Source of the DNA: Escherichia coli
Lineage (GTDB): Bacteria; Pseudomonadota; Gammaproteobacteria; Enterobacterales; Enterobacteriaceae
Length of the DNA stretch: 1,428 nt
Strand: one strand, 5' to 3'
Assembly: GCF_003334785.1 (NCBI RefSeq)
Contig: NZ_QOWV01000060.1
Part shown: positions 1-1,428 of the stretch, one piece after another
How positions within the stretch are numbered: position 1 is the first letter of the stretch
Layout: each line of letters opens with the position of its first letter
The notes under the pieces: generated by a model
The model's database searches: none
Told to the model about the DNA's origin: nothing
What the model saw: only the letters and a program-made list of their open reading frames with translations
Made by a program: the position numbers and the translations under genes

Positions 1-119
1 GTGGAGGTGAAGGCCACGCCGGGTTCATGAAGATGGCGGTCCAGGGTTTTCAGGGCCCGTTGAATGAGGCTGCGCTCGCCGGGCGTCATCTCTCCGGGCA
101 GAAAGGAAAGCTGTTGCAT
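1..119 (-). CDS. RadC-like JAB/MPN-domain protein (YeeS/YfjY/YkfG family), 5' partial: only the N-terminal 39 codons are in the window, the C-terminus lies beyond position 1
   Basis: Manual minus-strand translation from the ATG at 119..117 gives MQQLSFLPGEMTPGERSLIQRALKTLDRHLHEPGVAFTS, open to the window edge. I recognise this as the N-terminus of the RadC-like proteins of E. coli CP4-type cryptic prophages. A purine-rich SD-like stretch GGAGAGAAG (124..132) lies 4-9 nt upstream. An in-frame ATG at 134..132, directly after the upstream stop (TGAATG), is an alternative start. Absent from the ORF track because the in-window part is short. Confidence 0.75.
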   Translation of the reverse strand, partial: MQQLSFLPGEMTPGERSLIQRALKTLDRHLHEPGVAFTS

Positions 120-123
120 TGTA

Positions 124-132
124 CTTCTCTCC
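124..132 (-). promoter_or_regulatory. Shine-Dalgarno-like ribosome-binding site for the RadC-like gene
   Basis: Minus-strand sequence reads TGA-ATGGAGAGAAGTACA-ATG; the GGAG/GAGAAG purine run sits at a suitable distance upstream of the ATG at 119. Confidence 0.5.
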
Positions 133-134
133 AT

Positions 135-608
135 TCAGTCGATGATGCGCATAATGGCGCTGCATTCCGGATGCTGCAGGGCGTAATCCCGCAGCCGGTA
201 ATAATGGACCGTCATGGCATAACACTCCGTACGACAGGCATGATGACTGTACGTCATCAGACAGGCAGCAATGCCGGCAGCTTCCGGACTCATTTCAGCG
301 CGGTTACCGTTCATGGCATTGAACAGTACCCATGTTTCGTCATCATCGTCATCCGGTTCGGGTGCCATAAATGCCCCGCCGTTGTTCAGGGTGTACAGAT
401 TCCAGATACCACCGCAGTAGTCTTCGCACAGACGGTCCATCCAGCCGAAGACACGGGGCTCCAGGGTCACCCACTGTGGAATGAGGCCAAAGTGCTGCGG
501 CCAGAAGCTGATGCGCTGTTCATCAGGGACGAGGGTGGCAACCAGTTGTTGCAGGTCAGTCTCCGGTGCACAGGCCGAGGAGGTGGTGTTCTGAGACAAT
601 GTTTTCAT
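135..608 (-). CDS. Antirestriction protein, ArdB/KlcA family (Pfam Antirestrict-type; YfjX/YafX-like), 157 aa, complete
   Basis: Minus-strand ORF ending at TGA (137..135). Protein from the internal ATG at 608..606: MKTLSQNTTSSACAPETDLQQLVATLVPDEQRISFWPQHFGLIPQWVTLEPRVFGWMDRLCEDYCGGIWNLYTLNNGGAFMAPEPDDDDDETWVLFNAMNGNRAEMSPEAAGIAACLMTYSHHACRTECYAMTVHYYRLRDYALQHPECSAIMRIID. The VPDxxRxxFWPxHFG...PQW, CxxYxGGxW, LxNGG, SxEAAGI, YxLRD and HPE motifs match my recollection of KlcA/ArdB-family proteins. This start is preferred over the track's ATG at 785 because it has a strong AAGGA ribosome-binding site 8 nt upstream and gives the typical family length of ~150-160 aa. Confidence 0.85.
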   Translation of the reverse strand: MKTLSQNTTSSACAPETDLQQLVATLVPDEQRISFWPQHFGLIPQWVTLEPRVFGWMDRLCEDYCGGIWNLYTLNNGGAFMAPEPDDDDDETWVLFNAMNGNRAEMSPEAAGIAACLMTYSHHACRTECYAMTVHYYRLRDYALQHPECSAIMRIID

Positions 609-616
609 GTATGAAA

Positions 617-621
617 TCCTT
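617..621 (-). promoter_or_regulatory. Shine-Dalgarno site (AAGGA) for the antirestriction gene
   Basis: Minus-strand sequence reads TTACAAGGATTTCATACATG; AAGGA lies 8 nt upstream of the ATG at 608. Confidence 0.65.
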
Positions 622-794
622 GTAATGTGAATAAATGAGAGGGAGTAAAGGTCGGGAGCTGGCAACATCACGTTCATCACTGACCGTGATGACCCGGTAA
701 TATCAGGGATGAATGATATTCGGCTGAAATTCCGGACAGCCGTACGCGTAACCGTTCCGGTCACAGACGGATGGCCTGATGCCATTGCCTGTAC

Positions 795-812
795 TCAGTC
801 TGCACAGACTGA
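795..812. repeat. 18 bp near-perfect palindrome tCAGTCTGcaCAGACTGa (candidate operator or short hairpin)
   Basis: Plus strand 795..812 is tcagtctgcacagactga: 8 bp arms (795..802 and 805..812) around a 2 bp centre. No downstream T-run on either strand, so it does not look like an intrinsic terminator. Confidence 0.45.
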
Positions 813-909
813 TTTCTCCGGGACGGTAAAGCAGACGGGTATACCAGGCGCACAGGTCATCATCAGAAATGGAACGACATCCCGGCAGCGCCTTCAGGGA
901 CAGGCTGCA

Positions 910-1428
910 TCAGCGCAGGCTCTCCAGCAGCGTTTCCGCCATCACCCACAATGCGCGGTTGAGCTTAATATCGGTGTCGATGCTGTGAATGGCACGGGTG
1001 TGGATACGTTTTCCTCTGGCACTGCGACCGGAAATCCCGCCTTTCAGCATATTCTCCTGGATGGTCTGATAAGTACTCCACAGGTCCTTACCGTAATCCT
1101 CCCTGCGTCGCGGTGTCAGAATGTCAGCGGTGGTGACGGGCTGATGTTCGTCACCATAACGGTAAGTCAGTGCCGCCTGTGCCAGCGCCTGGCGTGCCGG
1201 TGGCGGCAGAATCAGCGACTGCATGGCATCACGCTTTTCCTCAATCCGGTCAAAAACCCCCACCACCTCGTAAGCCCCTTCAATGACTCTGTCCACCACA
1301 TTTCCCCGGTGCGGAACACGCACTTCCCCCAGAGACTGACCACAGACGCATCCGTTCTGGCAGACGAACCTGAAGTAACCCGGCAGCATCTGGTAGCTGG
1401 AGGTACCGTCATGAGAGTTGAGCAGAAT
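910..1428 (-). CDS. DUF932-family protein (YfjQ/YafZ-like), 3' portion: C-terminal 172 codons plus stop are in the window, N-terminus lies beyond position 1428
   Basis: The track ORF 910..1389 (-) remains open in the same frame up to the window edge. Manual translation of 1428..1390 gives ILLNSHDGTSSYQ, running into MLPGYFRFVCQNGCVCG..., so the track's Met at 1389 is internal. The stop is TGA at 912..910. The NSHDG(T/S)S and FxCxNG motifs fit my recollection of DUF932 proteins, which commonly sit upstream of antirestriction genes in enterobacterial islands. The family label is less certain than the call that it is coding. Confidence 0.7.
   Translation of the reverse strand: MLLNSHDGTSSYQMLPGYFRFVCQNGCVCGQSLGEVRVPHRGNVVDRVIEGAYEVVGVFDRIEEKRDAMQSLILPPPARQALAQAALTYRYGDEHQPVTTADILTPRRREDYGKDLWSTYQTIQENMLKGGISGRSARGKRIHTRAIHSIDTDIKLNRALWVMAETLLESLR

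What the first reader, a model, noticed from the sequence alone, without database searches (positions are those of the whole stretch)
910..1428. DUF932 protein of unknown function heading the module
The gene runs off the window edge and carries NSHDGTSSY and FVCQNGCVCG motifs, i.e. conserved His/Asp and Cys residues that could form a catalytic or metal-binding site. DUF932 proteins are widespread on plasmids, phages and ICEs next to anti-defence genes but, to my knowledge, have no established biochemical function. Their consistent position upstream of antirestriction genes makes an anti-defence or establishment role a reasonable hypothesis.
Basis: partly seen in the sequence, partly recalled or inferred. 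Interest (0 to 1): 0.35.

Follow-up and report, generated by a model that had tools for sequence, protein, structure and literature searches.

The report
Widespread uncharacterised DUF932 (YgeB/YafZ) gene
The finding is the last two-thirds of an ordinary, already catalogued DUF932 gene in an E. coli genomic island; its family is among the commonest genes carried into new hosts by conjugative plasmids, and its biochemical function is still unknown.

Summary
Window 910-1428, minus strand, encodes residues 101-272 plus the stop of a 272-aa DUF932 protein (Pfam E=6e-34). Both quoted motifs are present.

The gene is not new. About 90% of complete E. coli genomes carry matches to this window. The protein is 63% identical to F-plasmid YgeB (YubP, 'gene 32'). 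Published work ranks that family third among gene families enriched in plasmid leading regions, at median ORF position 1 from oriT, and lists it as uncharacterised.

No function could be assigned. A confident AlphaFold model (pLDDT 92.9) has no convincing relative in the PDB or in an AlphaFold DB sample. Sequence and profile searches of PDB, PADLOC, NCBIfam and PHROGs also named nothing.

Only part of the proposed active site survives comparison. N104, C123, N125 and H140 (plus H82, Q224 and N257) are invariant down to 26% identity. H106 and D107 are not invariant, and the other two cysteines are not conserved.

The antirestriction neighbour is present in only about half of 74 enterobacterial loci. 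RadC and CbtA neighbours are more constant.

My best reading is an early establishment factor for incoming DNA, probably an enzyme or nucleic-acid binder. This is inferred, not shown.

The parts
910..1428 (-). 3' part of the DUF932 (PF06067) gene: codons 101-272 plus the TGA stop at 912-910. The 5' 300 nt lie beyond the window.
   Evidence: Translation; Pfam E=6.1e-34; identical to the C-terminus of the 272-aa WP_001234625.1.
1393..1419 (-). NSHDGTSSY motif (residues 104-112), in the hairpin loop after strand 96-104 of the model. N104 is invariant and G108 nearly so. H106 and D107 are frequent but replaceable.
   Evidence: Column counts in 101 homologues and in a 12-sequence alignment reaching 26% identity; secondary structure.
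1339..1368 (-). FVCQNGCVCG motif (residues 121-130). C123 (1360-1362) and N125 are invariant and G126 is above 90%. C127 and C129 are not conserved.
   Evidence: the codon positions were checked against the sequence.
1309..1311 (-). Codon of invariant His140, which follows the short strand 136-138.
   Evidence: Invariant (101 sequences) and; codon read.
609..909 (.). 301-bp spacer between the DUF932 stop and the start of the antirestriction gene. No RNA family, promoter-like or terminator-like site was detected.
   Evidence: The offset from the DUF932 match to the antirestriction match ranges from 58 to 867 bp in loci where the two are adjacent.
135..608 (-). Downstream neighbour: an ArdB/KlcA-type antirestriction gene of 157 aa.
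   Evidence: ORF list; RefSeq product 'antirestriction protein'; 25% identity to the F-plasmid antirestriction protein at E=1.8e-4.
1..119 (-). Start of the RadC/JAB-domain gene, which continues beyond the left edge of the window.
   Evidence: RefSeq annotation of the matching locus.

Best explanation
Shown: this is a chromosomal-island copy of the DUF932 gene family, which includes E. coli K-12 YfjQ and YafZ and F-plasmid YgeB (also called YubP or 'gene 32'). The protein is a basic (pI 9.3), single-domain-family protein of 272 aa. Its model has an alpha/beta sheet half (about residues 10-140) and a helical half (about 144-271), with no recognisable relative of known function. The gene is intact and under purifying selection.

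Inferred: it is an establishment factor, made soon after a mobile element's DNA enters a new cell. On F it sits in the operon driven by the single-strand promoter Frpo1. In this island it precedes the antirestriction, RadC and CbtA/YeeU genes.

Speculative: the invariant polar residues H82, N104, C123, N125, H140 and Q224 (with E225 nearly invariant) and N257, together with conserved arginines, form a catalytic or metal-binding site. That site would act on nucleic acid or on a host factor during conversion of the incoming strand, rather than block one particular restriction enzyme.
For: Identity: Pfam E=6e-34; full gene recovered; 62.7% identity over 268 aa to the F gene at 64438-65259. The supplement of Samuel et al. 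groups the names YgeB, YubP, UPF0380 and PF06067 in one family. F's coordinate-based gene names also place ygeB at that position.

Prevalence: 4891 of 5426 complete E. coli genomes match the window. At least 5000 plasmids carry a homologue, 4447 of them predicted conjugative. The family spans 5370 clusters at 50% identity.

Leading-region position: on F and on pL65-2 the gene lies next to the oriT-proximal SLT gene and in the same orientation as ssb and psiB. In Samuel et al. the family has 4661 members, median ORF position 1 from oriT, and the orientation that can be transcribed from the T-strand.

Functional hints, all from Couturier et al. 2023: Frpo1 is required for early expression of its downstream genes in transconjugants. 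Deleting Frpo1 lowers transconjugants to 25% against 93% for wild type. Deleting ygeA alone gives 3.9%. A deletion of ygeB alone could not be built. The matings were between MG1655 strains.

Selection: all 80 enterobacterial loci carry intact ORFs, and median dN/dS is 0.12.

Candidate site: residues invariant down to 26% identity; 31 arginines and pI 9.3; confident model with pLDDT 92.9.
Against: No experiment isolates the contribution of ygeB. The F data confound it with ygeA and with the priming role of Frpo1 transcripts. [quoted passage not shown] The island copy has no Frpo-like or oriT-like DNA similarity to F outside the coding sequence, so early expression is unproven here. From strand positions alone, H82 and C123 may sit at opposite ends of the sheet. 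No fold or profile match supports any particular chemistry. Phage homologues show the protein also works outside conjugation.
Confidence: 0.45

Rival explanations
1. It is a dedicated anti-defence protein, for example an anti-restriction factor that directly inhibits or evades a host immune system acting on incoming DNA.
For: It is adjacent to an ArdB/KlcA-type gene in the window. It belongs to a family enriched in leading regions, which are rich in anti-defence genes, and it carries a putative 'Anti-restriction' label in the supplement of Samuel et al.. It also occurs among small, early-looking genes in jumbo phages.
Confidence: 0.2
2. It acts on the donor side, or as a regulator needed for expression of the transfer or pilus machinery or for activation of the element.
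For: In Variovorax, phage exposure selected loss of the DUF932 start codon in 50-60% of reads from each of four populations, alongside trbE (T4SS) mutations. In a Massilia ICE the gene lies between a relaxase-like gene and the excisionase/integrase end.
Against: On F the gene sits in an operon whose promoter is needed for early, transient expression of its downstream genes in transconjugants, and it has the same orientation as the other leading genes. No DNA-binding regulator fold was recognised. The Variovorax result is correlative and its authors read it as phage defence.
Confidence: 0.12
3. It belongs to an addiction or toxin-control circuit. It would neutralise a toxic partner (YgeA on F, or the CbtA-type toxin module in islands) rather than act on DNA.
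For: A ygeB-alone deletion could not be constructed, whereas Frpo1-ygeAB deletions could. CbtA lies downstream in 59 of 74 loci. A yfjQ S147R change was recorded in one FtsZ-suppressor strain.
Against: The island has its own cognate antitoxin, YeeU. No ygeA homologue was found in the island locus, and the ICE and phage contexts examined show no CbtA or YeeU families. The FtsZ suppressor is a single unverified mutation.
Confidence: 0.1
4. The chromosomal copy is a functionless relic of a decayed mobile element.
For: The island has a truncated integrase and several pseudogenes (DUF905, DUF5983, GTPase). Several cluster representatives are truncated or deletion-fused versions.
Against: All 80 loci from different enterobacterial species keep a full-length ORF, with median dN/dS 0.12. 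The window fragment has no stop or frameshift.
Confidence: 0.03

Closest known systems
F-plasmid YgeB (= YubP, 'gene 32', UPF0380), encoded in the leading region
   Same: 62.7% identical over 268 aa. Same length (272 against 273 aa), the same invariant residues and a single DUF932 domain.
   Different: The F copy is adjacent to oriT, downstream of the single-strand promoter Frpo1 and of ygeA. The window copy is in a chromosomal island with no detectable DNA similarity to Frpo, oriT or ygeA, and it is followed by antirestriction, RadC and CbtA genes.
E. coli K-12 YfjQ (CP4-57) and YafZ (CP4-6), UPF0380 family
   Same: The same family and the same kind of prophage-like island. Both are still listed as uncharacterised.
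   Different: I did not measure identity to the K-12 paralogues. That they belong to the same Pfam family is from annotation names and my own knowledge.
C-terminal DNA-binding domain of TnsE (Tn7), and the FP domains of PI31 and FBXO7
Anti-restriction proteins (ArdA, ArdB/KlcA, P1 Hdf/DarA)
   Same: The same genomic neighbourhoods and the same presumed early timing.
   Different: No sequence, profile or fold similarity. DUF932 is basic, not acidic.

Membership tests
DUF932 / PF06067 (UPF0380; older annotations say DUF945) | Significant match to the Pfam profile | tested here: met
   E=6.1e-34 over model positions 67-227 of 227 for the window fragment. PHROG 12094 matches the full protein at E=2.4e-128.
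DUF932 / PF06067 (UPF0380; older annotations say DUF945) | Stand-alone protein of about 270-290 aa with no fused domains | tested here: met
   The full gene is 272 aa. All 120 listed database relatives carry only PF06067. The longer forms examined are deletion fusions or upstream read-through.
DUF932 / PF06067 (UPF0380; older annotations say DUF945) | The family's conserved polar residues (N104, C123-x-N125, H140, Q224-E225, N257, R208, R245) are present | tested here: met
   All are present in the window translation and are invariant or at least 90% conserved in the alignments. H82 lies outside the window but is present in the full gene.
Leading-region gene of a conjugative element (YgeB-type, expressed from a single-strand promoter) | Orthology to F YgeB | tested here: met
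   62.7% identity over 268 aa.
Leading-region gene of a conjugative element (YgeB-type, expressed from a single-strand promoter) | Location next to an oriT and downstream of an Frpo-type single-strand promoter | tested here: not met
   The locus is a chromosomal island beside the cad operon, and no relaxase or T4SS gene is annotated within 12 kb on either side of the window. blastn finds no similarity to the F Frpo1/oriT region outside the coding sequence. A diverged single-strand promoter cannot be excluded.
Anti-restriction proteins (ArdA, ArdB/KlcA, Hdf-like) | Sequence or structural similarity to a characterised anti-restriction protein | tested here: not met
Anti-restriction proteins (ArdA, ArdB/KlcA, Hdf-like) | Relieves restriction of unmodified DNA in vivo | not testable with these tools
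   This needs a restriction-alleviation assay.
Cys-His hydrolases (papain-like or related) | Recognisable fold with a catalytic Cys, His and Asn/Asp and an oxyanion Gln | tested here: not met
   The invariant residue types C, H, N and Q exist. No cysteine-hydrolase fold appears among the structural matches, and C123 sits in a turn between strands, not at a helix N-terminus.
TnsE-CTD / FP-domain-like alpha/beta fold | Structural superposition with convincing score | tested here: inconclusive

The most novel reading that the evidence does not exclude
DUF932 is the founding member of a new enzyme or DNA-junction-binding fold. It would use the invariant Cys123/His140/Asn125 (plus His82) site to act on the incoming single strand or its primer-template junctions. 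It would be generally required for conjugative plasmids, ICEs, mobilisable islands and some phages to establish in a new cell. That would explain why it is the first T-strand-transcribable gene to enter on thousands of IncF plasmids and why a ygeB deletion could not be obtained.
Probability: 0.12. Interest if true: 0.75.

Novelty: already known. Interest (0 to 1): 0.3.

Why it matters
The family is very common: about 90% of complete E. coli genomes match this window, at least 5000 sequenced plasmids carry a homologue, and the family spans 5370 clusters at 50% identity. On IncF plasmids it is the first forward-oriented gene to enter a recipient. Published deletions around it cut F transfer several-fold. 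Working out what it does would fill a real gap in how resistance plasmids establish, and could offer a target for blocking their spread. This window adds no new biology to that question. It is a typical, already annotated copy. What this analysis adds is a short list of residues to mutate and several excluded explanations.

Tried and rejected
- Sequence and profile searches of PDB chains gave only chance hits.
- NCBIfam gave only a sub-threshold match to TIGR03299 'phage/plasmid-like protein'. PHROGs gave families of unknown function. PADLOC gave nothing.
- The anti-restriction link through P1 Hdf was rejected by hhalign.
- Domain fusions as a functional clue: none are real.
- An Frpo or oriT relic upstream of the island gene: no DNA similarity to F outside the coding sequence.
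- Rfam, promoter, terminator and repeat scans of the window showed nothing notable.
- Literature searches on DUF932, DUF945, yfjQ, yafZ, UPF0380, PF06067, TIGR03299 and ORF273 found no functional study.
- The first genome scan, with the 101-sequence alignment, failed for lack of a conserved stretch. It was repeated with a closer alignment, which returned only Enterobacterales, so the context statistics do not cover distant lineages.
- I could not map the conserved residues onto the model, because coordinates are not exposed to the script environment.

Full report
**What is in the window.**
All three genes lie on the minus strand. The RadC/JAB gene starts at 119 and runs off the left edge. An ArdB/KlcA-type antirestriction gene occupies 135-608. 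After a 301-bp spacer, an open frame runs from the right edge down to a TGA stop at 912-910. That frame gives 172 residues containing NSHDGTSSY and FVCQNGCVCG. It matches Pfam DUF932 (PF06067) at E=6.1e-34 over model positions 67-227 of 227.

**The full gene.**
The window matches E. coli TW10722 at 99.8% over its whole length. It also matches 4891 of 5426 complete E. coli genomes, with a median of three places per genome that has any. In TW10722 the full gene encodes 272 aa (WP_001234625.1, annotated 'DUF932 domain-containing protein'). The window fragment is identical to residues 101-272 of that protein.

**The surrounding island.**
The locus is an integrative island next to the cad operon. 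On the gene strand the order is: IS100, GTPase remnant, Cah (an Ag43-like autotransporter), dynamin-like, RdcB, patatin, DUF4339, a hypothetical gene, a DUF905 pseudogene, DUF932, antirestriction, RadC/JAB, DUF987, YeeU, CbtA, DUF5983, DUF957, DUF4942 and an integrase remnant. A 13-bp-stem terminator-like hairpin lies just upstream of the DUF932 start, outside the window. This fits DUF932 opening a transcription unit, but no consensus promoter was found there.

**Is any function known?**
- Full-text searches for DUF932, DUF945, yfjQ, yafZ, UPF0380, PF06067, TIGR03299 and ORF273 returned no functional study.
- The 2024 re-evaluation of the E. coli y-ome still lists yfjQ and yafZ as uncharacterised.
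- Sequence and profile searches of all PDB chains gave only chance hits.
- NCBIfam gave a sub-threshold TIGR03299 match, PHROGs gave unknown-function families, and PADLOC gave nothing.

**Structure.**
I built an alignment of 101 full-length homologues at 37-52% identity, drawn from a search that found 5370 clusters at 50% identity. The resulting AlphaFold2 model is confident (pLDDT 92.9, pTM 0.89). It has an alpha/beta half with a mostly antiparallel sheet (strands 61-68, 82-88, 96-104, 112-120, 125-128 and 136-138) and a helical half (144-271).
- Foldseek against PDB found no hit at E<=0.001.

With these tools the fold is an orphan.

**Are the motifs conserved?**
- Among the 101 homologues, P29, C123, N125, H140 and G230 are invariant.
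- H82, R85, R87, E99, N104, H106, G108, G117, R208, D211, W217, Q224, E225, G231, R245, N257 and W261 are at least about 90% conserved.
- D107 is 86% conserved and S105 is 79%.
- After adding phage homologues down to 26% identity, the invariant set becomes P29, T49, Q68, H82, N104, G117, C123, N125, H140, L174, Q224, G230, N257 and L260. H106 and D107 are then replaced in some members (NANDG, NSHNG, NDSAG).
- C127 and C129 are Cys in only 8% and 14% of sequences.

So there is a conserved polar constellation containing one Cys and two His, which suits a catalytic or metal site. The 'Cys cluster' is not real, and the His and Asp of NSHDG are not strictly required. The protein is basic, with pI 9.3 and 31 Arg.

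**The link to conjugative plasmids.**
tblastn hit the 5000-record ceiling in the plasmid collection. Of those records, 4447 are predicted conjugative and most are IncF-type plasmids of Escherichia or Klebsiella, at 61-63% identity. On pL65-2 and on F itself the gene lies beside the oriT-proximal SLT transglycosylase gene. It has the same orientation as hok, psiB, the ParB-like gene, DUF905 and ssb.

The F gene (64438-65259, 273 aa) is 62.7% identical to the island protein. F genes are named by map position: yfjA at 59.2 kb, yfjB at 59.5 kb, yfgB at 56.8 kb and ygfA at 65.6 kb all fit. By that rule this gene is ygeB, preceded by ygeA (95 aa). The supplement of Samuel et al. 2024 confirms this, grouping the names YubP, UPF0380, YafZ-like, 'F plasmid gene 32-like', PF06067 and YgeB in one family. 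That family is the third largest enriched in leading regions: 4661 members, FDR p=0, median ORF position 1 from oriT, T-strand-transcribable orientation. [quoted passage not shown]

The anti-restriction part of that label rests on a single member hitting P1 Hdf by Foldseek. My profile comparison with Hdf gives a probability of 0.7%, so I reject that link.

**Experimental hints from the literature.**
- Couturier et al. 2023 show that the single-strand promoter Frpo1 lies upstream of ygeA and ygeB and is required for early expression of its downstream genes in transconjugants.
- Deleting Frpo1 lowers transconjugants from 93% to 25%. Deleting ygeA alone gives 3.9%. A ygeB-only deletion 'could never be constructed'.
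- The matings were between MG1655 strains, where host restriction should not matter.
- Transcripts from this promoter also prime complementary-strand synthesis, so the contribution of ygeB itself is unresolved.
- A Variovorax preprint reports that phage exposure selected loss of a DUF932 start codon in an integrated plasmid, along with T4SS mutations.

**Genomic context at larger scale.**
A scan of species-representative genomes returned 80 loci, all Enterobacterales, at 67-98% identity.
- All 80 carry full-length ORFs, and median dN/dS against the window-type gene is 0.12, although dS is near saturation. The gene is therefore maintained by selection.
- Of the 74 loci with at least 3 kb of downstream sequence, 34 have an ArdB-like gene downstream on the same strand, 22 of them within 1 kb.
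- Seven loci (Proteus, Providencia, Morganella) have it immediately upstream, and 33 have none.
- RadC/JAB follows in 60 loci and CbtA in 59.
- Outside the Enterobacterales, examples include RadC...DUF932 followed by a large ParB_N protein and DUF736 in Pseudomonas aeruginosa. In a Massilia ICE the gene sits between a relaxase-like gene and the excisionase/integrase end. There is also a Roseomonas plasmid copy.
- In jumbo and other phages the gene sits among runs of small unannotated genes.

The antirestriction association is real but partial. The broader association is with establishment or leading-region gene sets.

**Interpretation.**
The most economical reading is that DUF932 is a conserved establishment factor of mobile DNA, probably an enzyme or a nucleic-acid-binding protein. 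It is probably not a specific restriction inhibitor. I hold this at about 0.45, because no experiment isolates its role and no fold match indicates a chemistry. The rivals are a direct anti-defence protein (0.2), a donor-side or regulatory role (0.12), control of a toxic partner (0.1) and a functionless relic (0.03).

**Verdict.**
The gene is real and correctly identified, but it is an ordinary, already annotated member of a known family of unknown function. Novelty: already known. Interest: 0.3. That score reflects the importance of the unsolved family, not anything unusual about this copy.

Noticed in passing
L001 13777-13806 (minus strand), about 50 nt upstream of the DUF932 start; outside the window: A strong terminator-like hairpin (13 pairs, 7 G-C, T-rich tail) lies between the DUF905 pseudogene and DUF932. 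It suggests DUF932 starts a new transcription unit, but no consensus promoter was found between them.
   Followed up: partly
window 609-909: The 301-bp non-coding spacer between DUF932 and the antirestriction gene has no Rfam, promoter or terminator hit. In other species the offset between the two genes ranges from 58 to 867 bp. The antirestriction ORF has an in-frame upstream extension to position 785 (216 aa). This is probably not used, because a good Shine-Dalgarno sequence precedes the ATG at 608.
   Followed up: partly
L001 12135-14051, compared with F (L008 4756-13260): The island carries DUF905, DUF932 and an ArdB-like gene. These correspond to families 2, 3 and 9/14 of the published top leading-region families. 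The island has no annotated relaxase or T4SS gene within 12 kb on either side of the window, so it looks like a leading-region gene set kept on a possibly mobilisable island.
   Followed up: partly
L082, L085, L086, L088-L091 (Morganella, Providencia, Proteus): The gene order is inverted relative to E. coli. The ArdB-like match ends 26-27 bp before the DUF932 match in five of these loci and within about 450 bp in the two Morganella loci. No RadC or CbtA gene follows.
   Followed up: no
   Followed up: partly
L004 6001-8139 (metagenomic phage-like contig): A DUF932 gene lies two genes upstream of a DNA polymerase III beta-clamp homologue. In L006 a DNA ligase and an HU-like gene lie downstream. 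This may hint at a replication-related context.
   Followed up: no
P0001 and P0010 (E. coli-derived database proteins): These are chimeric ORFs that join an Ag43-like C-terminus, or a dynamin-like protein, directly to DUF932. They look like deletions inside islands of this type, not true domain fusions.
   Followed up: partly
E. coli K-12 yfjQ (literature): A yfjQ S147R substitution was the only mutation listed for one strain in which a foreign FtsZ became functional (PMC5405962). This is notable because the same islands carry CbtA-type toxins, annotated as cytoskeleton-binding and, to my knowledge, acting on FtsZ and MreB. Causality was not shown.
   Followed up: no
window 27-614, plus strand: A 195-aa ORF runs antisense to the antirestriction gene. 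It is probably a spurious shadow ORF and was not examined further.
   Followed up: no
F plasmid, L008 12033-12320 (ygeA): The 95-aa YgeA protein upstream of ygeB has the strongest single-deletion phenotype in F, with 3.9% transconjugants. It has no homologue in the island. Its relation to DUF932 is unexplained.
   Followed up: partly
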